Shown piece by piece: positions 12,496 to 46,163 of a stretch of DNA of 64,000 nt. Origin of the DNA: Escherichia phage SKA64. Position numbers and translations under genes: made by a program. How positions within the stretch are numbered: the first letter of the stretch is position 1; every line of letters starts with the position of its first letter. The DNA lies in sequence record OM362897.1, one strand, 5' to 3'. The notes below the pieces were generated by a model. The model saw only the letters and a program-made list of their open reading frames with translations. It ran no database searches and was not told the DNA's origin.

Positions 12496-12597
12496 TTATT
12501 TAGATGAGTCTAAAATGTCTTTTACTTTTGCCGTGATAACGTCTTGATATTTGTTAATAAGATAGCCTACAACTACACCTACGATAAATGAAACCAT
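12496..12597 (-). CDS. 33 aa hydrophobic peptide (not in ORF track)
   Basis: ATG after AAGGAG; MVSFIVGVVVGYLINKYQDVITAKVKDILDSSK; fills gap between flanking genes. Confidence 0.35.
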   Translation of the reverse strand: MVSFIVGVVVGYLINKYQDVITAKVKDILDSSK

Positions 12598-12606
12598 TAT
12601 TTCTCC

Positions 12607-13215
12607 TTATTTAAGTGGTGAGAGAACAATCTCTCGGTTTTTTAAGAACCAAAGCATGTCATCTTGATCATAGTCTGATCCCTCTGTAGTAGAATTTTTG
12701 ATAGAATCAAAAAACCAACGAGGTATACCAAAACAACTTCCAGATGACTGCATGTCTTTCTGCGACATTTTAAATGTGATTGGAAAATCACAATTATCAA
12801 TCTCTCGTATATCTGCTGAAGATAAGATTGTAACTTCAACCAGTTCGTCGTTAGATGTAGTATCGTTGTCTTCCTGAATAATGTCAAATGCTTTTTGCAC
12901 ATCTTTTGCATCTAATGTTAAACCTGTGGCTTTCTGAAAAGCCGAAACAAAAATTAGAGCTTCTTCAGAGCAAGGGGCTTCCAGCAAATGAGCCATAATA
13001 GGTGACAAGCAAATGTTAAGATCTTTGTCATACCAACGAACAATCCACACAGGCGTTGCTCCGTTTTGTTTGTCACGAGCCAAAATTGTAACGTGCTGAC
13101 CTTCTTCTGGTATATGATACAAACCAGAAAAACCAGGGCCTGTAGTAGATTTTTTGACACGTGCTACGTGTCCCACTTCTAAAGGATCTTTACCATCCCA
13201 AATCTTCTCTTCCAT
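12607..13215 (-). CDS. hypothetical protein
   Basis: ORF track; GGAGG RBS. Confidence 0.55.
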   Translation of the reverse strand: MEEKIWDGKDPLEVGHVARVKKSTTGPGFSGLYHIPEEGQHVTILARDKQNGATPVWIVRWYDKDLNICLSPIMAHLLEAPCSEEALIFVSAFQKATGLTLDAKDVQKAFDIIQEDNDTTSNDELVEVTILSSADIREIDNCDFPITFKMSQKDMQSSGSCFGIPRWFFDSIKNSTTEGSDYDQDDMLWFLKNREIVLSPLK

Positions 13216-13223
13216 ATAACCTC

Positions 13224-13487
13224 CTAAATAACATCTTTGAAATAGTGAATCACTTCAATATTATGGTACAAAGTGCTTCGCTCTTTTGTGTACTCTGTTT
13301 TAGTAACAAACACTTTTGCAATACCGTACTTATGTGCTGGTAGGTTTGGATTGGTTTGCATAATTTCTTTCACTACACTTATAGTTTCGTGCTCGGATTC
13401 CCAATAAGTGAAGTAACCCTCACTATCAACGATTAAAGACTCGTTTTCAAGATCTACAAAACAGAAAAATATTGACGGATGGCTCAT
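13224..13487 (-). CDS. hypothetical protein
   Basis: ORF track. Confidence 0.5.
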   Translation of the reverse strand: MSHPSIFFCFVDLENESLIVDSEGYFTYWESEHETISVVKEIMQTNPNLPAHKYGIAKVFVTKTEYTKERSTLYHNIEVIHYFKDVI

Positions 13488-13651
13488 TCTTTTTCTTCAA
13501 CCTTCCTCAAAGCTTTTTGATCGAATATAGCGTGTTGCAACTCGCCGTTTTCATCAAACCAAGTTACTTTACAAGATTCACCATAACTTTCTATTACTGT
13601 CATTTGTTTGTTTGCACCTTTAAGACAAACCACATCACCTACTTGCATCAT
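13484..13651 (-). CDS. 55 aa small protein (not in ORF track)
   Basis: ATGA overlaps with both neighbours; AAAGGA RBS; MMQVGDVVCLKGANKQMTV... Confidence 0.4.
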   Translation of the reverse strand: MMQVGDVVCLKGANKQMTVIESYGESCKVTWFDENGELQHAIFDQKALRKVEEKE

Positions 13652-14097
13652 GATTGAGTTCCTTTTTGTTTTTCAATAGCTGCACGAATTTCTGCTAAAG
13701 GCTCTGCTACCAGATCTTCAACTTCTTGGATTTGTTCATTCATTACGTCACGAACCATTTGAATCCGCTCTTCAAGGGAAACAGCAAGTTCATCTGCATA
13801 AGCCATATTAAGAACGTGGTAGAAATTTTCTTGTGCACTTAAAGCACCAGATAACAAATAATCCTGATCTTCCTCTGGTAAAAGCATGTGTTGCTCATAT
13901 TCAGCAAAAGTGTTTTTGTTAATCTCAAGCAAAGCACCCATCATAACATCATACTGATAATCTTTATGACCAGGGTTGTTTAAAATAACATCTTCAAAGA
14001 TATTAAGAAGAATCTTAGTAACAAAAGCATTGTTTTCGGCACCTTCCATCTGACGGATTACCGTGATTACTTCTTTTTCTTTAGCGTTTTGGCTCAT
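13648..14097 (-). CDS. hypothetical protein
   Basis: ORF track; GAGGAG RBS. Confidence 0.55.
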   Translation of the reverse strand: MSQNAKEKEVITVIRQMEGAENNAFVTKILLNIFEDVILNNPGHKDYQYDVMMGALLEINKNTFAEYEQHMLLPEEDQDYLLSGALSAQENFYHVLNMAYADELAVSLEERIQMVRDVMNEQIQEVEDLVAEPLAEIRAAIEKQKGTQS

Positions 14098-14287
14098 AGT
14101 GTTTCTCCTCTGATTCTATTTGGATATAACCTGTGGTTTTGCACGGGTTACACTCGTAAATTTGACCTACATCCGCCATAACATATCCTGCACCACCACA
14201 ATAGGGGCAAGACATAGGAGGACAAGGTATGGACGTAGTGATTGTTACGACATTATCAATTTTCAACATTTTCGCCATTATTACCAT
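14081..14287 (-). CDS. small zinc-ribbon protein
   Basis: ORF track; CPYCGG...CNPCK. Confidence 0.5.
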   Translation of the reverse strand: MVIMAKMLKIDNVVTITTSIPCPPMSCPYCGGAGYVMADVGQIYECNPCKTTGYIQIESEEKHYEPKR

Positions 14288-15728: not shown

Positions 15729-15863
15729 TTACTTGTTTAAAGTATCTCTTACTTGTTCTGCTTGACGTTTAGTAATAAAAGTCCCAACCGAAACGTTAAA
15801 CTCATTGACTACAGAGAACGATCCATCACGGTTCTCACGAATATTAAACAATTTCTTACTCAT
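15729..15863 (-). CDS. 44 aa small protein (not in ORF track)
   Basis: ATG after AAGGAGG; MSKKLFNIRENRDGSFSVVNEF... Confidence 0.45.
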   Translation of the reverse strand: MSKKLFNIRENRDGSFSVVNEFNVSVGTFITKRQAEQVRDTLNK

Positions 15864-31401: not shown

Positions 31402-31536
31402 TTAAAACCAGGTGCCAACCGTTTCCAATAGGTCACTGACTACCAGAACAACATTGATTAGCACATATTTAATCAGGAAGGGGATAAGCGCCAGCGTCGC
31501 TACTATGATCCCCATTGTGATGATTACCTTTCTCAT
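31402..31536 (-). CDS. 44 aa membrane peptide (not in ORF track)
   Basis: ATG 2 nt after upstream stop; MRKVIITMGIIVATLALIPFLIKYVLINVVLVV... Confidence 0.4.
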   Translation of the reverse strand: MRKVIITMGIIVATLALIPFLIKYVLINVVLVVSDLLETVGTWF

Positions 31537-31538: not shown

Positions 31539-31823
31539 TTAGCGGTTTACGTAAGCTTTACCGTTTACGGTCATCGGTATGGCTTCAAGGTCTGGATCTT
31601 CCTTAAGGTCGCGTGCAAGCTCACCGCACCGGACACCCTCGAATCCGTGGTATTCTGTTTCCCCGTCCTTAAAAGTTTTAGCGGCAAGGCATAGGCGATA
31701 ATTAACACCGATCCGGTTTACTGCGTTGATATCGGTTAACGTGATCGATTCCGGCAAATCGTTAGCCATGACAGGCGCGTTAATACCAACAACCAGGGCA
31801 ACTACTGCGATCATCTTTTTCAT
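31539..31823 (-). CDS. secreted protein with Sec signal peptide
   Basis: MKKMIAVVALVVGINAPVMA-ND; GAAGAGGA RBS. Confidence 0.55.
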   Translation of the reverse strand: MKKMIAVVALVVGINAPVMANDLPESITLTDINAVNRIGVNYRLCLAAKTFKDGETEYHGFEGVRCGELARDLKEDPDLEAIPMTVNGKAYVNR

Positions 31824-33195: not shown

Positions 33196-33300
33196 TTAGC
33201 CGATACCGTGGGAAGATAGGATCATGTTAGCCATAGTTGCAACCACTCCAACCGATAACGCCAGGCCCACTACTACGACCGTGAAAATTTTCTCTAACAT
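33196..33300 (-). CDS. 34 aa hydrophobic peptide (not in ORF track)
   Basis: MLEKIFTVVVVGLALSVGVVATMANMILSSHGIG between hairpin cassette and next gene. Confidence 0.4.
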   Translation of the reverse strand: MLEKIFTVVVVGLALSVGVVATMANMILSSHGIG

Positions 33301-33318: not shown

Positions 33319-33380
33319 GGGCGTTGCCTTATTGCCCCGCCCTACGAAATACATTCTACCCGATTTATAATTGTTGTCAA
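33319..33380 (-). promoter_or_regulatory. promoter + leader hairpin cassette (variant stem)
   Basis: minus strand TTGACA ... TCGTAGGGCGGGG ... GC stem. Confidence 0.45.
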
Positions 33381-34717: not shown

Positions 34718-34738
34718 GATTTTTTCTCTCTTCTGTTA

Positions 34739-34796: not shown

Positions 34797-34797
34797 A

Positions 34798-34959
34798 CTA
34801 TTTGTTAGCCGGATTATATGCCAGGACCGCGCCGCTTGCTTTCACACTTTCCGCTTCATAGTTGCGCAGATCGTTTTCTGTAAGATTGAGCGCGATCACT
34901 TCCTCGACTTCAACGCCAGCGACAAGGGCGATCTCTTTGATAATGTCTGTTATTTTCAT
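34798..34959 (-). CDS. hypothetical protein (53 aa)
   Basis: internal ATG (MKITDII) after TAAGGTG. Confidence 0.5.
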   Translation of the reverse strand: MKITDIIKEIALVAGVEVEEVIALNLTENDLRNYEAESVKASGAVLAYNPANK

Positions 34960-34969
34960 GGTGTGCACC

Positions 34970-35089
34970 TTATAAGATGATTGATAAGATAGTGACAACG
35001 AAAGCGATTATACTGATGGCAAATGTCATCTTTTTACCTTCGGATACTGCCGGATTCTCTACCGTGTATTCTACTGTGTACTTGCTCAT
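34970..35089 (-). CDS. 39 aa membrane peptide (not in ORF track)
   Basis: ATG after GAGAGGA; MSKYTVEYTVENPAVSEGKKMTFAISIIAFVVTILSIIL. Confidence 0.4.
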   Translation of the reverse strand: MSKYTVEYTVENPAVSEGKKMTFAISIIAFVVTILSIIL

Positions 35090-35112
35090 CGTGTAATCCT
35101 CTCGTTTGCTTT

Positions 35113-35169
35113 GGGAACTATTCCCGCCGCCCTATGAATTAAATATACACTATCTCAAAATGATTGCAA
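35113..35169 (-). promoter_or_regulatory. promoter + leader hairpin cassette
   Basis: minus strand TTGCAA, 17 bp, TATATT, TCATAGGGCGGCGGG + gggaactattccc. Confidence 0.5.
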
Positions 35170-35186
35170 GCCTTTTTCTAAATTAT

Positions 35187-35471
35187 TTATGCAGTAAACA
35201 AACCATCATTTACAACGGCGGCGATGATCTCCCGTGCCATTGATTCAGGGAAAGGGGCGCTATAGTCCTGGCTTGTCTCATCGGTATCAGTGATCCAATG
35301 ATAAGCTAACGAGTAAAAGCCTTTACTAACTGTTTTCAGTGAGATGATGATCACTCGGTCAAGCTTATTGGTGAATGTTGCCGTTAATGTGTTACCATCC
35401 TGCGTCATGTTGGACAAGTAAGCGGGATCATTAATCAGGGAAAACATTAGCACGGTGTTAGCTTTACTCAT
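35187..35471 (-). CDS. hypothetical protein
   Basis: internal ATG (MSKANTV) after TTGAGGA. Confidence 0.55.
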   Translation of the reverse strand: MSKANTVLMFSLINDPAYLSNMTQDGNTLTATFTNKLDRVIIISLKTVSKGFYSLAYHWITDTDETSQDYSAPFPESMAREIIAAVVNDGLFTA

Positions 35472-35492
35472 GATTGCATCCTCAAAGGGGCG

Positions 35493-35546
35493 CGGCACCA
35501 TTGCCGCCCTACACGATAACTATAACACAATATAAAACAGGATCAA
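35493..35546 (-). promoter_or_regulatory. promoter + leader hairpin cassette
   Basis: minus strand TTGATC ... TATAGT ... GTGTAGGG + gcggcaccattgccgc. Confidence 0.45.
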
Positions 35547-35749
35547 CCTTTATTTTTCCACGGTGTCAGCTTGTTAATCATTGGTGATAAATAGCGTTTA
35601 CCAACGTAAAACAGCACGCCAACTGATGCAACGGCGGCGATCTCATGCATAGCCGACGGGAAACGGGTATCATAATAAGATCCAATAATAGCAATAGCGG
35701 CAACGGCTGCAACGTCGATAATGATTTTTTCTTGTTTTGCGGTGATCAT
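35543..35749 (-). CDS. small membrane protein (68 aa)
   Basis: internal ATG (MITAKQEK) after AAAAAGGTAAA; hydrophobic AAVAAIAIIGSYY. Confidence 0.5.
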   Translation of the reverse strand: MITAKQEKIIIDVAAVAAIAIIGSYYDTRFPSAMHEIAAVASVGVLFYVGKRYLSPMINKLTPWKNKG

Positions 35750-35770
35750 AATATTTACCTTTTTGTATGG

Positions 35771-35829
35771 TGGGGGAACTATTCCCCGCCTGATGTAATA
35801 CAGTTTAACAGGTCCGGTTATGGTGTCAA
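35771..35829 (-). promoter_or_regulatory. promoter + leader hairpin cassette
   Basis: minus strand TTGACA, 16 bp, TAAACT, + ggcggggaatagttccccca hairpin. Confidence 0.5.
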
Positions 35830-35835
35830 CCACTT

Positions 35836-36021
35836 TTAAAGATATTTTATACTGATAACGTTTTCCGGTTTAACCTTGTTGTGATGTGCATCAACATAGA
35901 TCAAACCATCGTCAGAAAAGCCCAGGATCACGCCCTGCGCGATAAAACCGTATTCGTCACGGTAACGCACGGCTATTTTTAATGTTGCGTTGTAGGCTGT
36001 TTTAAGCTCGTTTAAAGTCAT
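35836..36021 (-). CDS. hypothetical protein
   Basis: ORF track. Confidence 0.5.
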   Translation of the reverse strand: MTLNELKTAYNATLKIAVRYRDEYGFIAQGVILGFSDDGLIYVDAHHNKVKPENVISIKYL

Positions 36022-36039
36022 TTTTGTTTATCCTCTACA

Positions 36040-36070
36040 TGTAAAAAGAAAGGGCGCTTGGTGCGCCCTT
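36040..36070 (-). terminator. rho-independent terminator (minus strand)
   Basis: GGGCGCaccaaGCGCCC hairpin followed on minus strand by UUUCUUUUU. Confidence 0.6.
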
Positions 36071-36076
36071 GTTATG

Positions 36077-36223
36077 TTAATTCTCTAAATCCATCCAATT
36101 ATATTTGTCACTCTTCCCGCGCTTTGTTTTATTGCGCTTGTCGCCTTTGCGGATCACTTCCTCATTCCAGGCCTTGCGGATCTTGGAAGATTGAATTTTT
36201 TCTGCACGATTAGATGTATTCAT
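36077..36223 (-). CDS. 48 aa basic small protein (not in ORF track)
   Basis: ATG after AAAGAGGAAAC; MNTSNRAEKIQSSKIRKAWNEEVIRKGDKRNKTKRGKSDKYNWMDLEN. Confidence 0.45.
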   Translation of the reverse strand: MNTSNRAEKIQSSKIRKAWNEEVIRKGDKRNKTKRGKSDKYNWMDLEN

Positions 36224-36243
36224 TTTGTTTCCTCTTTATATGA

Positions 36244-36296
36244 GCGGCACCATTGCCGCTATATTATTAATTTAAACTGTTTTGTAAAATTGTCAA
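36244..36296 (-). promoter_or_regulatory. promoter + leader hairpin cassette
   Basis: minus strand TTGACA ... TAAATT ... gcggcaatggtgccgc. Confidence 0.5.
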
Positions 36297-36302
36297 GGTT
36301 TA

Positions 36303-36656
36303 TCATTCATAAGAGCAAGCAAGGATCACGCCTGCAATATAAAGCCAATAATTTTCCCTTTCTCGTTGGATTTTATCATCGCTGCTATTCTCTTTAATGT
36401 ATCCCCAGGATGTTAACAAGCGATCAATTTCCCAATATTCGAAAGCGATATTAATATCTGATGGCAAACCTTGTAACCATGATGCTATTGCTCTGATAAT
36501 GTTATGATCGTAACGTTTTTGGTTATCGGTATACCAATACTCGGATTTAAAACAGCGCATCAATTCCGCGATCTTCTCTTTATCTTCTGTGATGCCATAC
36601 TTGCTATAATCAATTGAGGCCAGAATATAAAGTTTAATTGCATTTTGTGCTTTCAT
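36303..36656 (-). CDS. hypothetical protein
   Basis: ORF track; AGAGAGACACC RBS. Confidence 0.55.
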   Translation of the reverse strand: MKAQNAIKLYILASIDYSKYGITEDKEKIAELMRCFKSEYWYTDNQKRYDHNIIRAIASWLQGLPSDINIAFEYWEIDRLLTSWGYIKENSSDDKIQRERENYWLYIAGVILACSYE

Positions 36657-36676
36657 GGTGTCTCTCTTCTGTTGTT

Positions 36677-36733
36677 GGCGGCACCATTGCCGCCCTACTT
36701 GTTACATCTTACTGGATTTTTAAAACTTGTCAA
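36677..36733 (-). promoter_or_regulatory. promoter + leader hairpin cassette
   Basis: minus strand TTGACA, 16 bp, TAAGAT, AACAAGTAGGG + ggcggcaatggtgccgcc. Confidence 0.55.
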
Positions 36734-36955
36734 TCATTTTTCTACTATCATTTGATACCCTGTTTCAACGTTAGAAAACACTGTTATCCCGTCCTGGCGT
36801 TCACTCATTAACATACAAGGCGCTAACATCCTTTCTACTGCCTTGCACTCGTTGTAAACGGCGGTTATATCTCCTGCTGCCTTGTCTTCTGTAGTAAATG
36901 TCTCATTTACGTAAACTTGACCAGCGACAACGGCGACAATAGCGAAAGTGATCAT
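36734..36955 (-). CDS. hypothetical protein
   Basis: ORF track; AAGGAAAC RBS; shares first codons ATGATCACTTTCGCTA with gene starting 37196. Confidence 0.55.
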   Translation of the reverse strand: MITFAIVAVVAGQVYVNETFTTEDKAAGDITAVYNECKAVERMLAPCMLMSERQDGITVFSNVETGYQMIVEK

Positions 36956-36989
36956 GATGTTTCCTTGTTAGTAGTGGTTTCTCTTCTCT

Positions 36990-37025
36990 ATAGCGCCCAT
37001 TATAGGCGCTATAACGAAAAGTCAA
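36990..37025 (-). promoter_or_regulatory. promoter + hairpin cassette (variant; -10 inside stem)
   Basis: minus strand TTGACT then atagcgccTATAATgggcgctat palindrome. Confidence 0.4.
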
Positions 37026-37028
37026 CTA

Positions 37029-37196
37029 TTATTTTTTAAGGCTTAAAGTGCCTAGCTTATCAGCGTGACGCAGACCAGGGAAGATCCATTTTCCTGATTC
37101 ATCTTTCACCGGGGCTTTAAAAGTAGCGCCCAGGTTGGCGGCGTTAACTTTACGTGCAACGTTGCGAGCGGCTTCACGGGTAGCGAAAGTGATCAT
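37029..37196 (-). CDS. 55 aa small protein (not in ORF track)
   Basis: ATG after GAGGAAAATATC; MITFATREAARNVARKVNAANLGATFKAPVKDESGKW... Confidence 0.45.
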   Translation of the reverse strand: MITFATREAARNVARKVNAANLGATFKAPVKDESGKWIFPGLRHADKLGTLSLKK

Positions 37197-37220
37197 GATA
37201 TTTTCCTCTTCTCTTTGTTA

Positions 37221-37282
37221 GGCGGTGGACCATTCCGCCGCCTTGATGTAATACAGTTTACTTTATTTTTGCAGTATTGCAA
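37221..37282 (-). promoter_or_regulatory. promoter + leader hairpin cassette
   Basis: minus strand TTGCAA ... hairpin ggcggcggaatggtccaccgcc. Confidence 0.4.
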
Positions 37283-37288
37283 GCGGTT

Positions 37289-37504
37289 TTATGAAATAAA
37301 TGTCAAAGTAAAATCATAATCTTTTGACAGTTTATATTGCACCTTGTTACCGTATATGTCACCTTTACGTAAAGATCCACGGATACCGATAACATCCTTC
37401 ACGTCTTTTAAATTTTTCACGCCTGTAATGTCTTTGTTGAAATACTCGTCATCTGAAAATAAAACTTGCTTTGCATTTTTTAACAAGGTGCGGATATTAG
37501 CCAT
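37289..37504 (-). CDS. hypothetical protein
   Basis: internal ATG (MANIRTLL) after AAGAGAGATTATC. Confidence 0.5.
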   Translation of the reverse strand: MANIRTLLKNAKQVLFSDDEYFNKDITGVKNLKDVKDVIGIRGSLRKGDIYGNKVQYKLSKDYDFTLTFIS

Positions 37505-37526
37505 TTTGATAATCTCTCTTACTAGG

Positions 37527-37584
37527 GGCGGCAATAGTGCCGCCCTATGAATTACATTTTACTAATTTTAGTTGTCTTGTCAAT
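37527..37584 (-). promoter_or_regulatory. promoter + leader hairpin cassette
   Basis: minus strand TTGACA, 16 bp, TAAAAT, TCATAGGG + ggcggcactattgccgcc. Confidence 0.55.
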
Positions 37585-37591
37585 ATTATTT

Positions 37592-37819
37592 TTAGTTTAA
37601 TTGATCCAGGCATAACAGACGATCAACGTTGAGATCGGTCAGGCTAATCGTTGGCACCTGGTAGGATTCGATGTACTCAACGCTCGACCATTGCCCAAAG
37701 TTAGCGACCGCCCAGCTATTCAATGAGGAGTGAAGATCATCCCCTTTCTTCTCGGTGATAACTGCTACTACCTGGGAGATTCCAACCGTGCCGGATACGC
37801 GAACAATAACGATAGCCAT
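37592..37819 (-). CDS. hypothetical protein
   Basis: ORF track; AAAGAAAGGTTATC RBS. Confidence 0.5.
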   Translation of the reverse strand: MAIVIVRVSGTVGISQVVAVITEKKGDDLHSSLNSWAVANFGQWSSVEYIESYQVPTISLTDLNVDRLLCLDQLN

Positions 37820-37841
37820 AATGATAACCTTTCTTTGATTT

Positions 37842-37902
37842 GGCGGGAAACCATTTCCCGCCCTATGCGATAAACTACACCAGATTAAAAAACGTTGTCA
37901 AC
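37842..37902 (-). promoter_or_regulatory. promoter + leader hairpin cassette
   Basis: minus strand TTGACA ... GCATAGGG + ggcgggaaatggtttcccgcc. Confidence 0.5.
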
Positions 37903-37910
37903 TGCTTTTA

Positions 37911-38150
37911 TTACATTCCTACCATAGCGGCACGGATTGCAGTTTTACTATACTTGAAACCATCAGGTGTATGAGTGATTCCATCCTGTTTTAATCTGTA
38001 GCACATCAGATCCGCCGCTTTATCTTTATTGCCGCACTCATTTATTAAACCTACAGCGTATAAGTATAACGATTCATCATTATTAATCCAAAGGCTTACA
38101 TTCCAATGAGTTTTATTTTTGTGACCGTTGTACATTTTAGATTTAGCCAT
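37911..38150 (-). CDS. hypothetical protein
   Basis: ORF track; AAAGAGATTAAC RBS. Confidence 0.5.
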   Translation of the reverse strand: MAKSKMYNGHKNKTHWNVSLWINNDESLYLYAVGLINECGNKDKAADLMCYRLKQDGITHTPDGFKYSKTAIRAAMVGM

Positions 38151-38174
38151 GATGTTAATCTCTTTTTCAGTGAG

Positions 38175-38232
38175 GCGGGAACTATTCCCGCTCTCGATAT
38201 AAGTATTATATGCTTTTTATTCGTGCTGTCAA
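38175..38232 (-). promoter_or_regulatory. promoter + leader hairpin cassette
   Basis: minus strand TTGACA ... TAATAC ... gcgggaatagttcccgc. Confidence 0.5.
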
Positions 38233-38238
38233 TGCTTT

Positions 38239-38604
38239 TTATAAATCTTTTTTACGTTTTACATCGCTTGCATGACTGTATACAGCGATCCCATTATCAC
38301 GGCAAAAGCGGGAAAGGTAGGCATAATTTGAAAACTCTTTACCTTCCAGGTTGATAACCTTGCTAAACTCTTCTAGGGCGACGGTATCAAAATGATCACC
38401 ATAGCCATATTGAAACGGAACGTTAACCACCTCGATCAGTTTACCGCCGATCTCAACGTCAACCATTAAAGAAAAATATGTATTACCGTAGGACCGTTGA
38501 AACCAGCGACGGGCGCTAATATGCACCGCCTCAATGCTGGATAATTCAATTTTAGCCGTGTTAGCCAGGGTAGCATAAGCGGAAACATTAATATTAATAG
38601 CCAT
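38239..38604 (-). CDS. hypothetical protein
   Basis: internal ATG (MAININ) preferred. Confidence 0.5.
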   Translation of the reverse strand: MAININVSAYATLANTAKIELSSIEAVHISARRWFQRSYGNTYFSLMVDVEIGGKLIEVVNVPFQYGYGDHFDTVALEEFSKVINLEGKEFSNYAYLSRFCRDNGIAVYSHASDVKRKKDL

Positions 38605-38636
38605 GATGATAACCTTTTTCATTGTTGGCGGGAAAC

Positions 38637-38696
38637 CACTTCCCGCCCTATGTGGTAAACTATACTAGAATTTTAAACAATGTCAACCGTTTTTAT
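38637..38696 (-). promoter_or_regulatory. promoter + leader hairpin cassette
   Basis: minus strand TTGACA ... TAGTTT ... CACATAGGG + ggcgggaagtggtttcccgcc. Confidence 0.5.
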
Positions 38697-39055
38697 TCGT
38701 AAATTTTACCGCTTTCAGCCCATACCATAACGCGGCGCATACTATCCCAAGTGTTTTGATCCAGGTTTAAGCCGTGCAACTCTTCGGTACTTTCCAGACC
38801 AGGTACCGCCTTGTTGTAAGTCGCATATAAGCGCCCTTGATACTCATACGCCAGAGTAAGATCCGTTTGAATCATCTTTTTAAGCATAGCATTAAGCATC
38901 ATATTAGCGGCATGTTGATCACGTTTTAGCGGTAACATATCAATAAAGGCGCGATAAGCTGAAACATGAATATCAACCGTTTCACGTGGTAAATTTTTCA
39001 TGTCATCGCGGAAAGATACCAGATTAAACATGATAGTATTGATTTGCTTGCTCAT
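38693..39055 (-). CDS. hypothetical protein
   Basis: internal ATG (MSKQINTI) preferred; track extension covers hairpin. Confidence 0.5.
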   Translation of the reverse strand: MSKQINTIMFNLVSFRDDMKNLPRETVDIHVSAYRAFIDMLPLKRDQHAANMMLNAMLKKMIQTDLTLAYEYQGRLYATYNKAVPGLESTEELHGLNLDQNTWDSMRRVMVWAESGKIYE

Positions 39056-39076
39056 TGTGTTACCCTTTTTTGTTTT

Positions 39077-39138
39077 GGCGGGGAAGTATTCCACCGCCCT
39101 ATGTGTTACATCTTATCAGATTAAAAAACGTTGTCAAG
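39077..39138 (-). promoter_or_regulatory. promoter + leader hairpin cassette
   Basis: minus strand TTGACA, 16-17 bp, TAAGAT, ACACATAGGG + ggcggtggaatacttccccgcc. Confidence 0.55.
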
Positions 39139-39155
39139 AATATTTTTAGATAATT

Positions 39156-39437
39156 TTAACTGTATGATCCACATCGTTCGCAGTAGTGATCATCGTCGTC
39201 ATCAGCTACCTGGCTGATAAAGTGATCTACTTTTGCTTTTAGGTTATTATAATTATTTTCTACTTCCTTTAATCGCTCCTGATAGTATCCCAGGGCTTCA
39301 ATATACGCCGCCTCTTCTGTTTTTTCACGCATGGCTAAATTCATGCCGCGCGTATCATCATACAGCCAAAAACCATCGGTGCACTCACTCATTGAAAGGG
39401 TAGGGCTTAACTCTTTATGATTAATTACCTTGCTCAT
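39156..39437 (-). CDS. hypothetical protein
   Basis: internal ATG (MSKVINHK); C-terminal CERCGS. Confidence 0.5.
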   Translation of the reverse strand: MSKVINHKELSPTLSMSECTDGFWLYDDTRGMNLAMREKTEEAAYIEALGYYQERLKEVENNYNNLKAKVDHFISQVADDDDDHYCERCGSYS

Positions 39438-39447
39438 AGTGTGCGCC

Positions 39448-39552
39448 TTATAGAATGATTGAAACAACAATTGCTACAGTGATCCACACTGGAACGGCTA
39501 ACAAAATAGCGTTAATCGTTCCAACCGTCAAACTATTTTCTTTATTAATCAT
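39448..39552 (-). CDS. 34 aa membrane peptide (not in ORF track)
   Basis: MINKENSLTVGTINAILLAVPVWITVAIVVSIIL directly downstream of a cassette. Confidence 0.4.
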   Translation of the reverse strand: MINKENSLTVGTINAILLAVPVWITVAIVVSIIL

Positions 39553-39581
39553 TGTAAGCCTCTTGCATAATTTCACTATGA

Positions 39582-39638
39582 GCGGCACCATTGCCGCCCT
39601 ACGTGGTAAATATTATGCCAGTGGCGGCGATATGTCAA
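39582..39638 (-). promoter_or_regulatory. promoter + leader hairpin cassette
   Basis: minus strand TTGACA ... TAATAT, TTACCACGTAGGG + gcggcaatggtgccgc. Confidence 0.55.
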
Positions 39639-40201
39639 AGACTATTTTCAAAGTTTTCTAGTGCGATCCTTTTTTCTTCCTCTGTTGGCTGATAATCAGG
39701 AAAAGCATCAACACACAACAACGGCGGGATCTCTTCGTACTCTTCCTCTTCCGTTGTCTCCTCGTCTTCCTCCTGGGCTATGGCTGCAATTTTGGCTAAT
39801 TTTCTTTCAGCTTGAATCAATTTACCATCAAGTACGTTTTTTGCCATATTGTAAGCGGTCCAGGTTATGCGCTTACTTTCTAATGCTTCCTCAAGCGCCG
39901 CTATCTTGCTGGGGTATTCATCCAGGACACGAAAAGCCGGATCAACTTTGTACAAAGGATTATCTTTCGCGCCGTCGCTCGCATCTTCCGCACTGGATAA
40001 ATCAGCGTTACCATTTGCCAGCCAGCCAGGGCGCACATAACGCGCTTTTACGTTGCCGTTACTACGTGCTAATCTGTTACCTATTTGCTCACCGCTATAT
40101 CCCGTGGATTCATCGATAAGATGATCGGTAATGATGCGCGGATCATCTGCTTCATGTTTTACCCAAGACTGGATCACATATTCGCGGCCCATATTAACCA
40201 C
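39635..40201 (-). CDS. hypothetical protein with acidic C-terminal region
   Basis: ORF track; AAAAGGTGG RBS. Confidence 0.55.
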   Translation of the reverse strand: MVNMGREYVIQSWVKHEADDPRIITDHLIDESTGYSGEQIGNRLARSNGNVKARYVRPGWLANGNADLSSAEDASDGAKDNPLYKVDPAFRVLDEYPSKIAALEEALESKRITWTAYNMAKNVLDGKLIQAERKLAKIAAIAQEEDEETTEEEEYEEIPPLLCVDAFPDYQPTEEEKRIALENFENSL

Positions 40202-40451
40202 CTTTTTTCAACAATTGGCATACTTTAAAAAGACTTGCTGAATCCTTGCAAGGGTAGAAAGATGTACGATAGTCACGTACGCCAACCTTGCGGATCTCGA
40301 TGTTCTCGCATGTTGTTTGATCAAAGATATTTATTTCATCATGCCCCCTTATATAAACATAGTGGGGATGTATTAACGCATATTTTGCTAATCTGTAAAA
40401 AGCGTTATCTTTGAACGCGATCACGTGACCTTTTAATTTGATGTAAAACAT
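40194..40451 (-). CDS. hypothetical protein
   Basis: ORF track; AAGGTGG RBS. Confidence 0.5.
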   Translation of the reverse strand: MFYIKLKGHVIAFKDNAFYRLAKYALIHPHYVYIRGHDEINIFDQTTCENIEIRKVGVRDYRTSFYPCKDSASLFKVCQLLKKGG

Positions 40452-40468
40452 TCTACCACCTTACAAAT

Positions 40469-40523
40469 AGCGGGAACTATTCCCGCTTTATGTAACATAT
40501 TAACAAATTATTCGTTAATGTCA
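40469..40523 (-). promoter_or_regulatory. promoter + leader hairpin cassette
   Basis: minus strand TTGACA ... TAATAT ... gcgggaatagttcccgc. Confidence 0.5.
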
Positions 40524-40527
40524 AGCC

Positions 40528-40800
40528 TTAAAGCAAAAACGCTACATCTTGCGCTTTTAGTGTAGTATCAACCATTTTCGGGCTTTTATAATCAACAAAG
40601 CGCGCGGTTTTTTCAATAGCGAAACCGAGATAATCTTGTTTATTGAATTTACATTCTTTCTTAAATGTTTCCCGCGCCACGGTGATCGCTGCGTCCAGGG
40701 ATAAACGCCCGTCAATGTTGATATTTGCGAAAGATCCGCCACCGCTCATAGGTTTACCAGTGGTGCCAGTTACGATCATTGTTGCGCTATATGATGCCAT
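40528..40800 (-). CDS. hypothetical protein
   Basis: ORF track; AGAAGAGAGAAATC RBS. Confidence 0.55.
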   Translation of the reverse strand: MASYSATMIVTGTTGKPMSGGGSFANINIDGRLSLDAAITVARETFKKECKFNKQDYLGFAIEKTARFVDYKSPKMVDTTLKAQDVAFLL

Positions 40801-40821
40801 GATGATTTCTCTCTTCTGTTA

Positions 40822-40879
40822 GGCGGGGCGCTTGTCGCCCCTATGTGATACATCTTATCAGGTTGTGGCTTGTTGTCAA
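40822..40879 (-). promoter_or_regulatory. promoter + leader hairpin cassette
   Basis: minus strand TTGACA ... TAAGAT, CACATAGGGG + ggggcgacaagcgccccgcc. Confidence 0.55.
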
Positions 40880-40884
40880 GACTT

Positions 40885-41082
40885 TTATTCTATTCCTGCA
40901 ATCTGCTTAACGCGCTTGCATTTTGCAGTATGCTGATCTTCTGTAATTACTCCCATTTCTAACAGTGAATCAATGAAAGATAAAACCGTTTCATGATCAT
41001 CTTGGGGATGACTGAACTCAGTAAAACCGTTTACTATTACGTTGATTTGTCCAGCTTTCGCCACAATGTGCAATGTTGCCAT
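40885..41082 (-). CDS. hypothetical protein (65 aa)
   Basis: internal ATG (MATLHIV) after GGAG. Confidence 0.5.
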   Translation of the reverse strand: MATLHIVAKAGQINVIVNGFTEFSHPQDDHETVLSFIDSLLEMGVITEDQHTAKCKRVKQIAGIE

Positions 41083-41103
41083 GATCTTAACTCCAAATAG
41101 TGA

Positions 41104-41160
41104 GCGGCACCATTGCCGCCCTACGTGGTAAATATTATGCCGCCACCTGGCGAACGTCAA
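41104..41160 (-). promoter_or_regulatory. promoter + leader hairpin cassette
   Basis: minus strand TTGACG ... TAATAT, TTACCACGTAGGG + gcggcaatggtgccgc. Confidence 0.5.
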
Positions 41161-41268
41161 CCACTTTTTCAATCTTTTTATTTTCTTTTTGCTTGCTATA
41201 TATAAAGGAAAGGGCTATCATCTTTCTACCGCGCCAACCAGGGCGCACAACAAAGAAAGGGCGACACC

Positions 41269-41535
41269 ATGACAAATACTACATTACACCTTATGCACTC
41301 ATTGGGCTGGCAAGGCGGCACGGTGCACCAGGTAGCAAGCGCAACGGGCTTAAAGGTTGAAACCGTTCTCAACCTATCAGATTATAAGGTCGAGGATAGT
41401 TATCAATTACAAAGTTACACGGGCGGTTTTACCTGGGCGCGTGAAGGTGGGAAAGAAAGCAATATACCACATTGGGGAAAAGGTGATATTCATTTTTGGC
41501 TAGGTGTCCTGACCTGGCAAGAAAACAAAAAATAA
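41269..41535 (+). CDS. hypothetical protein (lone + strand gene inside - block)
   Basis: ORF track; AAAGGG upstream; no clear promoter assigned. Confidence 0.45.
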   Translation: MTNTTLHLMHSLGWQGGTVHQVASATGLKVETVLNLSDYKVEDSYQLQSYTGGFTWAREGGKESNIPHWGKGDIHFWLGVLTWQENKK

Positions 41536-41537
41536 TC

Positions 41538-41566
41538 TTGACAAGCCCAGGGATCGGGCTTATACT
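41538..41566 (+). promoter_or_regulatory. sigma70-like promoter (alternatively part of a weak terminator)
   Basis: TTGACA, 17 bp, TATACT; spacer itself is a small hairpin agccc...gggct. Confidence 0.35.
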
Positions 41567-41572
41567 GTTTTA

Positions 41573-41680
41573 CATACAGAAGAGGAAGCGCCACCCCACG
41601 GCGTAAAGGCGGGGCTAACATACCAGGGGCACTGGTTGGAAGGTTGATCGCCGGTAGGCTGGGCGCTATATATTTGTAAA
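41573..41680 (+). ncRNA. candidate structured small RNA
   Basis: GC-rich non-coding segment after promoter; closing stem AGCGCC (about 41587-41592) with GGCGCT (about 41662-41667), internal CCCC/GGGG and CCAG/CTGG stems, then AUAUAUUUG. Confidence 0.3.
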
Positions 41681-41785
41681 GAAATGTAAAGATAAAATAA
41701 TCGCTTGCTTTCCTGGGTGGATCTGTTATTCTTATTACATGGCGAGGGGACACGGGAGCGCGAGACAAACACCGCCCCTGCGCGT

Positions 41786-41903
41786 CATTCTCTAAATGAG
41801 AATGATTATCATTTACCTTATCAAATAAGAATCAATCTCATTTATAAACCTAAATGCGAATCATTATCATTTGCATTTCCATATGAGAACTCTTCTCATT
41901 CCC
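41786..41903. promoter_or_regulatory. cluster of Fur-box-like AT-rich operator motifs
   Basis: GAGAATGATTATCATTTAC (41798-41816; 15 of 19 matches to GATAATGATAATCATTATC), GCGAATCATTATCATTTGC (41856-41874), palindromes CATTCTCtaaatGAGAATG and ATGAGAActcTTCTCAT. Confidence 0.35.
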
Positions 41904-41921
41904 ATCTGCATAAATTTTTGT

Positions 41922-42098
41922 AAACTTTAAATTTTGCTTTTGTACTTTCATTTTTGTAAAAGCAAAAAAACTTTAAATACTGTGGGCGCGCAAAATTTTT
42001 AAAATTTTCCTTGATTTTTGAGTTTTGTTTTGTATCTGACATTTTAAGATAATTTTCCTAAACTTTAAATTTTGGTTTTCAACTTTCACTTTTGTAAA
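41922..42098. repeat. AT-rich 39 bp direct repeat pair
   Basis: AAACTTTAAATTTTGCTTTTGTACTTTCATTTTTGTAAA (41922-41960) vs AAACTTTAAATTTTGGTTTTCAACTTTCACTTTTGTAAA (42060-42098). Confidence 0.5.
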
Positions 42099-42261
42099 TT
42101 CTTAAAAAGTTTAAATAATTTGAGGGATTTTTGAGATAATAGGTAATGGGAATTTGAGATAACCTTTAATCTTATTGGCAGACCTTCAGGAACCCACTCA
42201 GATCGAATCCTAGTGATGCAAACTGAAAAAGACAAGGGTTTGTATAGGACAAAATAATAGG

Positions 42262-42290
42262 CTCTCTACGGTGCTGTAGGAGCCTTATTT
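42262..42290 (-). terminator. rho-independent terminator (bidirectional-capable)
   Basis: ggctctctacggtgctgtaggagcc hairpin with T/U-rich tracts on both sides; downstream of minus gene ending 42341. Confidence 0.55.
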
Positions 42291-42340
42291 CTGTGCTACA
42301 AAGTGACGCCTTTGTTCTAAAAATGAAAAAAGTTAAAATA

Positions 42341-44411: not shown

Positions 44412-44439
44412 CTCTAACGATCCTCTCTCTCTATTAAAC

Positions 44440-44475
44440 TAAAATCAATATAACAAAACCCGCCGAAGCGGGTTT
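44440..44475 (-). terminator. rho-independent terminator (minus strand)
   Basis: aaacccgccgaagcgggttt hairpin with U-rich tail on minus strand. Confidence 0.55.
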
Positions 44476-44491
44476 AATAAATCTCAACTTA

Positions 44492-45631
44492 TTAGAACAC
44501 GCTACCTAATGTGGTGGAACGTTGTGTTACAGGCTCCAGCACCACTCGCAGAGTGTTTCCTGGTGTAGTGCTCATCACCAGAATCTTACCACCTTCAATC
44601 AGATCACAAGTTAGACCATCAGCAGTTGCACATAGATCAATATGTGGATCACCATCTTCATCCAGGATAACATAACTGTTGGTTTCCATTGCTTCCACTT
44701 CATCATCTTTCAAACTTTGTAGATAGATGTTCAGGGAACAAGCACCCGACAAAAACTTAGTAGGGGTGAAGTCGTGCCAGTTATTGATCCAATTCACCTT
44801 CAAGGTTTTGCCATTAGCTACGATAGAAGCCACATTCCATTTAGCATCGTTCCCTAAAGAAATACCCATCATTTCAAGACATTCTTTAAAAGTCATTTTT
44901 GGATAGAAATTCAATTCTTCTACAATGCCTTGAATAACATCGAAAGACAACTCTGTGCTAACATCCCATAAACGTTGGAAGTTATCTACGTGCTTTTTAT
45001 TTACCAAGTTCTTATCCAAGTAATCTAACATAGTTTCACTAGACAGTTTATCGTAATTGAAACTGTAGTAGATACGACTAGGACGGTTTACAAAATATTC
45101 CGAGATATAGCCACTATTTTTAGTGAGGATGTAAAGTTTATTTCCACTTCCTGTTCCATCCAACAAGGTCAACAGTGCTTCCTGATCTTCTTTCTTAGCG
45201 TACACTTTATCAAACTCGTCAAATAAAACAACAGCACGATCTGTAATTTTACTCATAAATTCTAAGAATCCAGCGTCTGTGTAAGGCTGTGTCACCAAAA
45301 TGGTTGGAATACCTAAACCTTCTGTGGACATTAGGGACATGCTAATCAGTTTAGCTAACATCGTCTTACCACTGCCCTTTGTCCCTGTCAGTAACACCCC
45401 AGTATTTTTACCTTCTTTACTACGACGAGCAAATGTTTTAATAACATGTGCGGCGCGGTCTTTAGTTTCCCCATAAAGAGTGTTCGGAAGAGAGAAACTT
45501 TCGCCACGCACTAAAGAGTAGTTACCGTGCGGATCGCAGTTGACAACCCAAACTCCAGCAGGAAGTTTATTAGCTTCAACACCATATTCCTTATTTACAA
45601 CAGCCACATCTCCAAAAATAGTGTATTTCAT
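44492..45631 (-). CDS. AAA+ family ATPase
   Basis: Walker A GTKGSGKT, Walker B VVLFDEFD. Confidence 0.7.
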   Translation of the reverse strand: MKYTIFGDVAVVNKEYGVEANKLPAGVWVVNCDPHGNYSLVRGESFSLPNTLYGETKDRAAHVIKTFARRSKEGKNTGVLLTGTKGSGKTMLAKLISMSLMSTEGLGIPTILVTQPYTDAGFLEFMSKITDRAVVLFDEFDKVYAKKEDQEALLTLLDGTGSGNKLYILTKNSGYISEYFVNRPSRIYYSFNYDKLSSETMLDYLDKNLVNKKHVDNFQRLWDVSTELSFDVIQGIVEELNFYPKMTFKECLEMMGISLGNDAKWNVASIVANGKTLKVNWINNWHDFTPTKFLSGACSLNIYLQSLKDDEVEAMETNSYVILDEDGDPHIDLCATADGLTCDLIEGGKILVMSTTPGNTLRVVLEPVTQRSTTLGSVF

Positions 45632-45987
45632 TAGAACGTTTCTCCTTTTAAAATAATTACTGTAAACTTTGCAGTTTTTTCACTCTTAATATTCTTGATT
45701 AATAAGTACTCTCCTCCAGGTGCATCTTTGTATTGTTTAATAGCTACTATTTCATTTTTGCAAGTAGCTATAATCGAATAAAAAGGACGTTCCGTGTTAT
45801 CTTCTTTTCCTGTATATGCCTCAACATCTTTGCACTCTTCTAGAACACCATTCCCAGGTGTATAGTAAAACTTGTTGCCTGTGATCACAACATCTTTACC
45901 AATATCCGTTTTAACTGCTACAAATTTTTGAGCATAAGTGGTGAAGCTTACGGTAGCCAGCAATGTGGCTAAGATTAATTTTTTCAT
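45631..45987 (-). CDS. secreted protein with Sec signal peptide
   Basis: internal ATG (MKKLILATLLATVSFTTYA-QK) after AGGAGGGAAG. Confidence 0.55.
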   Translation of the reverse strand: MKKLILATLLATVSFTTYAQKFVAVKTDIGKDVVITGNKFYYTPGNGVLEECKDVEAYTGKEDNTERPFYSIIATCKNEIVAIKQYKDAPGGEYLLIKNIKSEKTAKFTVIILKGETF

Positions 45988-45998
45988 AAACTTCCCTC

Positions 45999-46163
45999 CT
46001 ATTCCCACAACATACAAATCGCAGCGACAAACATATTAGCAATAGCCGCACCAAGAACTATAAACATCGCCAGTTCAGAACAATATTCACCAACCAGAGG
46101 GGATACTATTGCACAGAGTAATCCCAATGTCAAACACAAGTTGATGATGAAGTTTAAAATCAT
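45999..46163 (-). CDS. 54 aa membrane protein (not in ORF track)
   Basis: ATG after TAAGGAGAGAAT; MILNFIINLCLTLGLLCAIVSPLVGEYCSELAMFIVLGAAIANMFVAAICMLWE. Confidence 0.4.
   Translation of the reverse strand: MILNFIINLCLTLGLLCAIVSPLVGEYCSELAMFIVLGAAIANMFVAAICMLWE

What the first reader, a model, noticed from the sequence alone, without database searches (positions are those of the whole stretch)
12496..46163. At least six short hydrophobic peptides absent from the ORF track
Six 33-54 aa reading frames (12496..12597, 31402..31536, 33196..33300, 34970..35089, 39448..39552, 45999..46163) have RBS-ATG, exactly fill intergenic gaps and encode one or two predicted transmembrane helices. Small membrane peptides of this kind are common as phage modulators of host membrane proteins, and three other short non-hydrophobic frames were found the same way. 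They are invisible to a 60 aa ORF cutoff.
Basis: seen in the sequence. Interest (0 to 1): 0.4.

Follow-up and report, generated by a model that had tools for sequence, protein, structure and literature searches.

The report
Small membrane-peptide genes, already catalogued
The six short frames are real, conserved early genes of a phAPEC8-like coliphage that encode tiny membrane peptides, but relatives' GenBank records and the PHROGs families already list them as proteins of unknown function, so the finding mostly reflects the 60-aa ORF cutoff.

Summary
The window is a Phapecoctavirus-like (phAPEC8/tuntematon-type) coliphage.

**What is there**
- All six frames exist on the minus (coding) strand, run from ATG to a stop, and fill gaps between genes.
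- Five have a Shine-Dalgarno site. F2 has none; its ATG lies 2 nt after the stop of an upstream secreted-protein gene.
- Hydrophobic helices are clear for F2–F6. F6 is a two-helix hairpin, F2 a single long helix, and F4 and F5 are C-terminally anchored. F1's 14-residue stretch is borderline.

**Evidence they are genes**
- They stand far above chance: 4 ORFs with both a Shine-Dalgarno site and a hydrophobic segment versus 0.016 in shuffles.
- They stay intact in relatives down to about 75% DNA identity; for F6, about 40–50% protein identity.
- Pooled pN/pS is 0.27, the lowest of all six reading frames.
- F3, F4 and F5 are the first cistrons of a promoter–hairpin–RBS cassette repeated about 20 times.

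**Novelty**
- They are not new. Five match PHROG families end to end, and five exact sequences are already in public databases, some labelled "membrane protein".
- Annotation is patchy, most clearly for F2, F3 and F5.
- At least ten further genes under 60 aa are hidden by the cutoff.

**Function**
Untested. Early inner-membrane peptides acting on envelope proteins is plausible, not shown. The finding is ordinary and of low novelty.

The parts
12496..12597 (-). F1, 33 aa: short N-terminal apolar stretch (MVSFIVGVVVGYLI) followed by a charged amphipathic tail. SD AGGAG is 5 nt upstream. Borderline membrane anchor.
   Evidence: phrog_11666 E=1e-12. Found in 70 phage records. Exact sequence equals AFU62841.1 of phAPEC8. 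pN/pS 0.15 against phiWec179/PsgM04F.
31402..31536 (-). F2, 44 aa: MRK followed by one long hydrophobic helix. No SD; the ATG lies 2 nt after the TAA of the upstream secreted-protein gene, which indicates translational coupling.
   Evidence: phrog_16005 E=5e-27. Found in 153 records including Vequintavirinae. Intact in 8 of 8 relatives, pN/pS 0.22-0.47. AF2 single helix 2-43, pLDDT 92. M1 and R2 invariant.
31539..31823 (-). 94-aa gene with an N-terminal signal peptide (MKKMIAVVALVVGINAPVMA|ND). It is the conserved upstream partner of F2.
   Evidence: Translation. phrog_9845, function unknown. The same stop+2nt+ATG junction occurs in all relatives, including Vequintavirus.
33196..33300 (-). F3, 34 aa: a single central TM helix. 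First cistron of an early cassette.
   Evidence: phrog_14631 E=2e-22. Found in 156 records. The exact peptide is shared with 11 Vequintavirus entries. pN/pS 0.07-0.17.
33353..33380 (-). Sigma-70-like promoter TTGACA-16-TAGAAT that drives F3. A GC hairpin follows at about 33319-33342.
34970..35089 (-). F4, 39 aa: polar N-terminal 20 residues ending in KK, then a TM helix that runs to the C-terminus (tail-anchored). First cistron of a cassette with a weaker -35 element (TTGCAA, promoter 35142-35169).
   Evidence: phrog_10979 'membrane protein' E=6e-23. Equals phAPEC8_004 and RefSeq 'membrane protein' entries.
39448..39552 (-). F5, 34 aa: conserved polar N-terminus (MINKENSLTVGTIN), then a TM helix running to the C-terminus. 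First cistron of a cassette.
   Evidence: No PHROG match. Found in 107 records; unannotated in phi92, annotated as bas62_0109 and nepoznato_153. pN/pS 0.11-0.29.
39610..39638 (-). Sigma-70-like promoter TTGACA-17-TAATAT that drives F5. A hairpin GGGCGGCAATGGTGCCGC follows at about 39580-39599.
45999..46163 (-). F6, 54 aa: two-helix transmembrane hairpin with an SPxxGE turn and a VAAxCMLWE end. SD AGGAG is 5 nt upstream.
   Evidence: phrog_27459 E=1e-38. Found in 64 records. Syntenic homologues at 40-50% identity keep the length and motifs. AF2 helices 2-27 and 30-53, pLDDT 91.
45631..45987 (-). 118-aa gene with a signal peptide (MKKLILATLLATVSFTTYA|QK), starting 11 nt after the F6 stop.
   Evidence: phrog_5474, function unknown.
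46951..47127 (-). A further two-TM peptide, 58 aa from its ATG with SD GGAG. It is not in the finding because the 60-aa track shows it as a 62-aa TTG ORF.
   Evidence: phrog_22639 E=2.5e-42.

Best explanation
The six frames are genuine small genes of a lytic Phapecoctavirus-like coliphage, and they are already catalogued elsewhere.

What they encode:
- F2, F3, F4 and F5 encode single-helix inner-membrane peptides. F4 and F5 are anchored by a C-terminal helix.
- F6 encodes a two-helix hairpin.
- F1 carries a short N-terminal anchor and is borderline.

How they are expressed:
- F3, F4 and F5 are the first cistrons of host-type (sigma-70) promoter, 5' hairpin, RBS cassettes. By inference they are among the first products made after infection.
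- F2 is translated by coupling to a secreted 94-aa protein.
- F1 and F6 sit in tightly packed operons and have strong SD sites.

Shown here: the frames exist, they are under purifying selection, their context has gene-like signals, and their helices are predicted with high confidence.

Inferred, about 0.4: the peptides insert into the host inner membrane early in infection and act by binding host or phage envelope proteins, for host takeover, superinfection exclusion or envelope remodelling. F2 and F6 possibly work with their adjacent periplasmic partner proteins.
For: - Existence and signals.
- Above chance: 4 observed versus 0.016 expected.
- Intact in 2-8 fetched relatives per frame (the fewest for F6), down to 74-81% DNA identity.
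- F6 homologues at 40-50% protein identity keep length and motifs.
- Pooled pN/pS is 0.27 in the sense frame, the lowest of six frames. Variable sites by codon position total 56, 25 and 86.
- Full-length PHROG matches for five frames.
- Presence in 60-156 phage records, mostly annotated as CDS.
- Exact sequences already deposited for five.
- Cassette architecture shared with about 20 neighbouring genes whose first cistrons range from 34 to 139 aa.
- AF2 helices with pLDDT 91-92.
- Signal peptides in the partner genes.
- Absent from 5,426 complete E. coli genomes, so they are phage-specific.
Against: - There is no expression, localisation or phenotype data.
- No similarity to any characterised protein was found.
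- The third-position-aligned antisense frame also shows a low pN/pS (0.35), so substitution patterns alone do not fix the strand.
- F4 has few substitutions and pN/pS of 0.43-1.1.
- F1's apolar run is too short for a canonical TM helix.
- The overall count of promoter-like hits is barely above shuffles: 61 versus 50.
Confidence: 0.8

Rival explanations
1. Toxin-like host shut-off peptides. The peptides would behave like bacterial type I toxins (TisB, ShoB, Hok, Ldr type), oligomerising in the inner membrane and dissipating the proton-motive force early in infection.
For: The size, the single helix, and the polar-head plus C-terminal-helix layout of F4 and F5 resemble such toxins (the comparison is from my own knowledge). 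They are expressed from strong host-type promoters.
Against: No Pfam hit to Hok/Gef, Ldr, TisB or any other toxin family. The N-terminal polar segment of F5 and the C-terminal tail of F2 are the most conserved parts, which fits specific binding better than generic pore formation. Early depolarisation would hurt a phage with a roughly 150-kb genome to replicate (inference).
Confidence: 0.12
2. Upstream or leader ORFs whose translation, not their product, matters. F3, F4 and F5 would serve to open the 5' UTR or deliver ribosomes to the downstream gene, whose ATG lies 10-14 nt after their stop.
For: They are the first cistrons of their cassettes. In F4 and F5 the stop codon abuts the next gene's weak SD-like sequence (TAAGGTG/TAAGGCG).
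Against: The amino-acid sequence is under purifying selection (pN/pS 0.07-0.3 for F3 and F5). F3 is amino-acid-identical across subfamilies although its downstream neighbour differs between phages. Hydrophobic character and length are preserved where the sequence diverges.
Confidence: 0.05
3. Non-functional chance ORFs, or shadows of genes on the other strand such as 31412-31606(+), 39455-39661(+) and 34762-34980(+).
For: ORFs of about 33 codons are common by chance: 8 per shuffle in the gap set. The antisense frame stays largely open and has a low pN/pS of 0.35.
Against: The whole 12.6-49.1 kb block is transcribed leftward. The antisense ORFs lack ATG+SD signals. antiF2 acquires stops in three Vequintavirus loci. 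antiF5's start region is not conserved, and its C-terminal half is the reverse complement of the promoter/hairpin cassette. The sense frame has the lowest pN/pS. ORFs with SD plus a hydrophobic segment number 4 versus 0.016 expected, and 0 on the opposite strand.
Confidence: 0.03

Closest known systems
PHROG families phrog_11666, 16005, 14631, 10979 ('membrane protein', host-takeover/moron category) and 27459, and the corresponding GenBank CDSs (phAPEC8_004, phAPEC8_0015, FV3_00157, A512_96, JR325_gp056 and others)
   Same: Full-length matches with E-values from 1e-12 to 1e-38. Five exact peptide sequences are already deposited. The syntenic position is the same.
   Different: F5 has no PHROG family. 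F2's exact sequence is not in the collection (closest relative 93% identical). None of these entries has an experimentally tested function.
Bacterial small inner-membrane regulatory proteins (AcrZ, MgrB, MgtS, KdpF, CydX) - own knowledge
   Same: They are 30-50 aa, have a single helix, and act by binding a larger membrane protein.
   Different: There is no sequence similarity: the best hit is YbgT_YccB at E=0.45. The frames are phage-encoded and absent from E. coli genomes. No partner is known.
T4 superinfection-exclusion pair Imm (membrane) and Spackle (early periplasmic protein; PMC7677548)
   Same: Both involve early expression and pair a small membrane protein with a small signal-peptide protein. 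Here F2 pairs with the 94-aa protein and F6 with the 118-aa protein.
   Different: There is no detectable homology. The peptides are half the size of Imm. No exclusion phenotype has been tested.
Type I toxin peptides (TisB, ShoB, Hok, Ldr) and phage holins/pinholins - own knowledge
   Same: Small hydrophobic helical peptides of similar size.
   Different: No family hit; the only holin match is phrog_24402 at E=0.09 for F1. The frames sit in an early-promoter context rather than a lysis cassette. No antisense RNA is evident.

Membership tests
Annotated Phapecoctavirus/Vequintavirus small hypothetical-protein families (PHROGs) | Full-length profile match to the family HMM | tested here: met
   F1, F2, F3, F4 and F6 match at E=1e-12 to 1e-38 over the whole peptide. 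F5 has no PHROG family but clusters with nepoznato_153/YP_009986007.1.
Annotated Phapecoctavirus/Vequintavirus small hypothetical-protein families (PHROGs) | Same syntenic position in related genomes | tested here: met
   and local mapping.
Protein-coding gene (generic) | ORF integrity and purifying selection across diverged relatives | tested here: met
   For F4 and F6 the DNA-level sample is small. F6 is backed by homologues at 40-50% identity.
Integral membrane peptide | Apolar helix of at least about 17-19 residues | tested here: met
   F2-F6 have apolar runs of 17-20 residues, with AF2 helices for F2 and F6. F1 has only 14 residues, which is inconclusive for that one frame. Membrane insertion itself cannot be tested here.
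Holin / pinholin | Sequence family match and location in a late lysis cassette next to an endolysin | tested here: not met
   The only match is a non-significant phrog_24402 hit for F1, E=0.09. The frames lie in early sigma-70 cassettes or among early operon genes of unknown function.
Type I toxin-antitoxin peptide | Match to a toxin family (Hok/Gef, Ldr, TisB, Ibs/Sho, Fst) | tested here: not met
   No such Pfam hit at E<=1.
Type I toxin-antitoxin peptide | Overlapping antisense RNA and toxicity on expression | not testable with these tools
   A plus-strand promoter-like site at 39392-39421 faces F5, but promoter-like hits overall are near chance level (61 versus 50).
Bacterial small membrane regulators (AcrZ, MgrB, MgtS, KdpF, CydX/YbgT) | Sequence family match | tested here: not met
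   Best hit is YbgT_YccB at E=0.45 for F3. No DNA match in E. coli genomes.
T4 Imm/Sp-type superinfection exclusion | Homology to Imm or Spackle, and an exclusion phenotype | tested here: not met
   No Pfam, PHROG or PDB match for the peptides or their signal-peptide partners. The phenotype cannot be tested here.

The most novel reading that the evidence does not exclude
The early cassette array would be a toolkit of independently promoted micro-effectors. Each small TM peptide (F2-F6, plus 46951-47127) would bind a different host inner-membrane protein within minutes of infection. F2 and F6 would act as membrane anchors or chaperones for their adjacent secreted partners in a new superinfection-exclusion or envelope-remodelling system. 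F3 is amino-acid-identical across two phage subfamilies, which would mark it as hitting a highly conserved host target.
Probability: 0.25. Interest if true: 0.45.

Novelty: already known. Interest (0 to 1): 0.17.

Why it matters
The main lesson is practical. A 60-aa ORF cutoff hides at least 15 real genes in this 64-kb phage window, and public annotation of the same genes is inconsistent: F2 and F3 are missing in tuntematon, F3 in phAPEC8, and F5 in phi92. Biologically, the peptides form a compact, well-conserved set of early phage products with membrane-type sequences and no known function. They are cheap to synthesise and test. Identifying their targets could reveal new ways phages manipulate the E. 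coli envelope, but nothing here shows that they do anything unusual.

Tried and rejected
- Pfam scan of the six peptides: only noise, with E>=0.016 and all hits below the gathering thresholds.
- Pfam, PHROG and PDB-sequence searches of ten neighbouring genes to borrow a function: all unknown except the AAA ATPase and a DUF1033-like hit.
- Large-database protein searches for F6 and F2, plus an exhaustive HMMER search for F6: only the same phage lineage, with no functional names.
- Rfam scan of the whole window, to test RNA-level explanations: no hits. Tandem-repeat scan: nothing relevant.
- E. coli complete-genome search for host or prophage copies: none.
- Five literature searches for functional data on phAPEC8/rV5 early small proteins: nothing specific found.
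- F4/F5 paralogy, suggested by the shared ...SIIL* end and similar downstream junction: considered, but the similarity is too short and hydrophobic to support it, so it is not claimed.
- Antisense ORFs as the real genes: rejected.
- That script picks the first ATG at least 35 nt downstream, so it mis-assigns the F3 and F5 starts to short out-of-frame ATGs. The true distances were read.
Full report
**Identity of the window**

Megablast places the window among Phapecoctavirus-type coliphages (Stephanstirmvirinae).
- Region 11–30 kb is 97–98% identical to Ro121c4YLVW, phAPEC8 and their relatives.
- Region 30–47 kb is about 93% identical to tuntematon.

GC skew and the ORF map show one long leftward-transcribed block of small genes from about 12.6 to 49.1 kb. 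There are no tRNAs and no Rfam families.

**Checking the observation**

All six coordinate pairs are exact minus-strand ORFs running from ATG to a stop:

| Frame | Coordinates | Length | Peptide |
|---|---|---|---|
| F1 | 12496–12597 | 33 aa | MVSFIVGVVVGYLINKYQDVITAKVKDILDSSK |
| F2 | 31402–31536 | 44 aa | MRKVIITMGIIVATLALIPFLIKYVLINVVLVVSDLLETVGTWF |
| F3 | 33196–33300 | 34 aa | MLEKIFTVVVVGLALSVGVVATMANMILSSHGIG |
| F4 | 34970–35089 | 39 aa | MSKYTVEYTVENPAVSEGKKMTFAISIIAFVVTILSIIL |
| F5 | 39448–39552 | 34 aa | MINKENSLTVGTINAILLAVPVWITVAIVVSIIL |
| F6 | 45999–46163 | 54 aa | MILNFIINLCLTLGLLCAIVSPLVGEYCSELAMFIVLGAAIANMFVAAICMLWE |

Translation signals:
- F1 and F6 have AGGAG 5 nt upstream of the ATG.
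- F3, F4 and F5 have four-base SD cores (GAGG or AGGA) at 6–8 nt.
- F2 has no SD. Its ATG follows the TAA of the upstream gene by two bases.

With correct neighbour starts, each frame fills its gap to within 2–14 nt. The apparent overlaps in the 60-aa track come from spurious TTG or GTG extensions of the downstream genes.

Chance expectation: in 22 gap segments of the leftward block I counted ATG ORFs of at least 33 aa.

| Class | Coding strand | Mean of 500 dinucleotide shuffles | Opposite strand |
|---|---|---|---|
| All | 19 | 8.0 | 12 |
| With an SD site | 10 | 0.53 | 1 |
| With a hydrophobic 15-mer | 7 | 0.32 | 3 |
| With both | 4 | 0.016 | 0 |

An open frame of this length is therefore unremarkable on its own, but the combination of features is far beyond chance.

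**Are they coding?**

I fetched syntenic DNA from 14 relatives in three genera.
- In every relative where the start aligns, the frame begins with ATG and stays open. Lengths are identical, except that F5 varies between 31 and 35 aa at its C-terminal end.
- Replacements are conservative, for example V/I/L/A/F swaps inside the helices.
- Variable sites fall at codon positions 1, 2 and 3 as 56, 25 and 86 when summed over the six frames. Pairwise pN/pS is mostly 0.07–0.47.
- Pooled pN/pS by reading frame is 0.27 for the sense frame and 0.35 for the antisense frame whose third positions coincide. The other four frames give 0.86–1.54.
- F6 has syntenic counterparts in phiWec179 and PsgM04F that are only about 40–50% identical. 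They keep 53–54 residues, the SPxxGE turn and the VAAxCML(W/L/F)(E/D) end.

Longer plus-strand ORFs overlap F2, F4 and F5 (31412–31606, 34762–34980, 39455–39661). They are antisense shadows rather than genes:
- antiF2 acquires stops in three Vequintavirus loci.
- antiF5's start region is not conserved.
- The C-terminal half of antiF5 is the reverse complement of a promoter/hairpin cassette.

**Expression context**

Between 30.1 and 40.9 kb the minus strand carries about 20 copies of one module:
- TTGACA (occasionally TTGCAA), then 16–18 nt, then TAnnnT;
- about 8–10 nt further on, a GC-rich hairpin (typically GGGCGG…CCGCC, ΔG −11 to −21 kcal/mol);
- then a purine-rich RBS and an ATG, 36–58 nt after the −10 element.

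First cistrons of these modules range continuously from 34 to 139 aa. F3 (promoter 33353–33380), F5 (39610–39638) and F4 (35142–35169, with the weaker −35 element) are first cistrons of such modules, exactly like their larger neighbours. That is independent evidence that they are genes. By inference, host RNA polymerase transcribes them immediately after infection.

The phAPEC8 record marks the hairpin part as a "putative promoter determined with PHIRE" and places one directly upstream of phAPEC8_004, which is F4.

F2 is different. It is the distal partner of a 94-aa protein with a clear signal peptide (MKKMIAVVALVVGINAPVMA|ND). The stop+2-nt+ATG junction is conserved in all relatives, including Vequintavirus. 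Eleven nucleotides after F6 comes a 118-aa protein that also has a signal peptide.

**Peptide anatomy**

Apolar runs and layouts:
- F2: residues 4–22, after an invariant MR(K) and followed by an invariant VLVVSD segment.
- F3: residues 5–24.
- F4: residues 21–39, preceded by KK.
- F5: residues 15–34.
- F6: two runs separated by GEYCSE.
- F4 and F5 end exactly at the end of the helix, so they are tail-anchored with a probable cytoplasmic N-terminus. That topology is inferred from the positive-inside rule.
- F1: only 14 apolar residues (12 in phiWec179) followed by an amphipathic charged tail, so it is at best a short anchor.

AlphaFold2 predicts F2 as one continuous helix (residues 2–43, pLDDT 92) and F6 as a hairpin (residues 2–27 and 30–53, pLDDT 91). 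"One or two TM helices" therefore holds for F2–F6 and is doubtful for F1.

**Already known?**

Yes.
- Five peptides match PHROG families over their full length. F4's family is labelled "membrane protein".
- BLASTN finds the loci in 70, 153, 156, 60, 107 and 64 phage records for F1 to F6.
- F2 and F3 also occur in Vequintavirinae (rV5-like phages). F5 also occurs in Justusliebigvirus.
- The exact sequences of F1, F3, F4, F5 and F6 are already in public protein collections, for example AFU62841.1 and RefSeq "membrane protein" entries. F3 is identical to a protein shared by 11 Vequintavirus entries. Only F2's exact sequence is absent, and relatives at 93% identity exist.
- Annotation is patchy. 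F2 and F3 are unannotated in tuntematon, F3 in phAPEC8 and F5 in phi92. Gene callers give F2 three different starts.
- No match exists in 5,426 complete E. coli genomes.
- The F6 family comprises just two 50%-identity clusters among 1.84 billion representatives.

**More hidden genes**

Nine of ten further short frames with ATG+SD match PHROG families:
- 13484–13651
- 15729–15863
- 24306–24482
- 36077–36223
- 37029–37196
- 34318–34455
- 12270–12443
- 49145–49294 (+)
- 51033–51206 (+)

In addition, 46173–46337 (54 aa), 34798–34959 (53 aa) and a second two-TM peptide at 46951–47127 (58 aa) are masked in the track as TTG-extended ORFs of at least 60 aa.

**Function**

No sequence-based link to any characterised protein was found for the peptides or their neighbours. 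Literature searches gave no functional data.

My best mechanistic guess, at about 0.4, is early inner-membrane peptides that bind host or phage envelope proteins. The closest analogy is the T4 pair of a membrane protein and an early periplasmic protein (Spackle; PMC7677548) for F2 and F6 with their secreted partners. The alternatives are toxin-like depolarisers (about 0.12), leader ORFs (about 0.05), and non-functional or antisense artefacts (about 0.03).

**Verdict**

They are ordinary, already catalogued orphan genes of this phage lineage, and the proposed role is an untested generality.

Noticed in passing
window 28506-28524, 28685-28703, 29461-29479; 41795-41813, 41824-41842, 41853-41871: A 19-nt palindrome (AATGAGAATGATTATCATT, up to 3 mismatches) occurs at six distinct sites, only in the two gene-free stretches that bracket the early cassette array (9 strand matches versus 0.06 expected). 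The three copies at 41.8 kb are spaced 29 nt apart. It resembles the E. coli Fur box (GATAATGATAATCATTATC, from my own knowledge), so it could be an operator or iteron array for a host or phage DNA-binding protein.
   Followed up: partly
window 30150-40880, minus strand: About 20 repeated early transcription cassettes, each with a near-consensus sigma-70 promoter, a 5'-terminal GC hairpin (GGGCGG..CCGCC, dG -11 to -21), an RBS and an ATG. The hairpin part is what the phAPEC8 record calls 'PHIRE' promoters. It may instead be an mRNA-stabilising or regulatory 5' stem-loop.
   Followed up: partly
window 28546-29727 and 41769-42340: Two stretches (1.2 kb and 0.57 kb) have no credible ORF on either strand. 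They are AT-rich and carry direct and inverted repeats, including 72-nt direct repeats at 41913-41984 and 42051-42122. Tuntematon annotates a repeat_region at the equivalent of the second stretch. They are candidate origin or control regions.
   Followed up: partly
window 12464-12486, minus strand: A hairpin (GCTGCA, 11-nt loop, TGCAGC) followed by CTTTT lies immediately after the F1 stop and before the next gene (12270-12443, a 57-aa CxxC-containing protein, phrog_10623). It is a possible weak terminator or RNA-processing site.
   Followed up: no
window 46951-47127 (-), 46173-46337 (-), 34798-34959 (-): Three genes whose real products are 58, 54 and 53 aa appear in a 60-aa ORF track only because of spurious upstream TTG starts. 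The first is another two-TM peptide (phrog_22639), of the same class as F6.
   Followed up: yes
window 49145-49294 (+) and 51033-51206 (+): Two short genes (49 and 57 aa) both match phrog_2381, so they are likely paralogues within the rightward early block.
   Followed up: no
L012 (Vequintavirus A51.2) versus window 31543-33394; L013 (phi92) versus window 39094-41797: Cassette order is mosaic between subfamilies. A51.2 has F3, a 216-nt gene, the 94-aa secreted protein and F2 contiguous, whereas the window has four extra genes in between. In phi92, F5 is the first gene next to the divergent control region. The F3 ORF (94-96% identity) is more conserved than its flanks (about 80-86%).
   Followed up: partly
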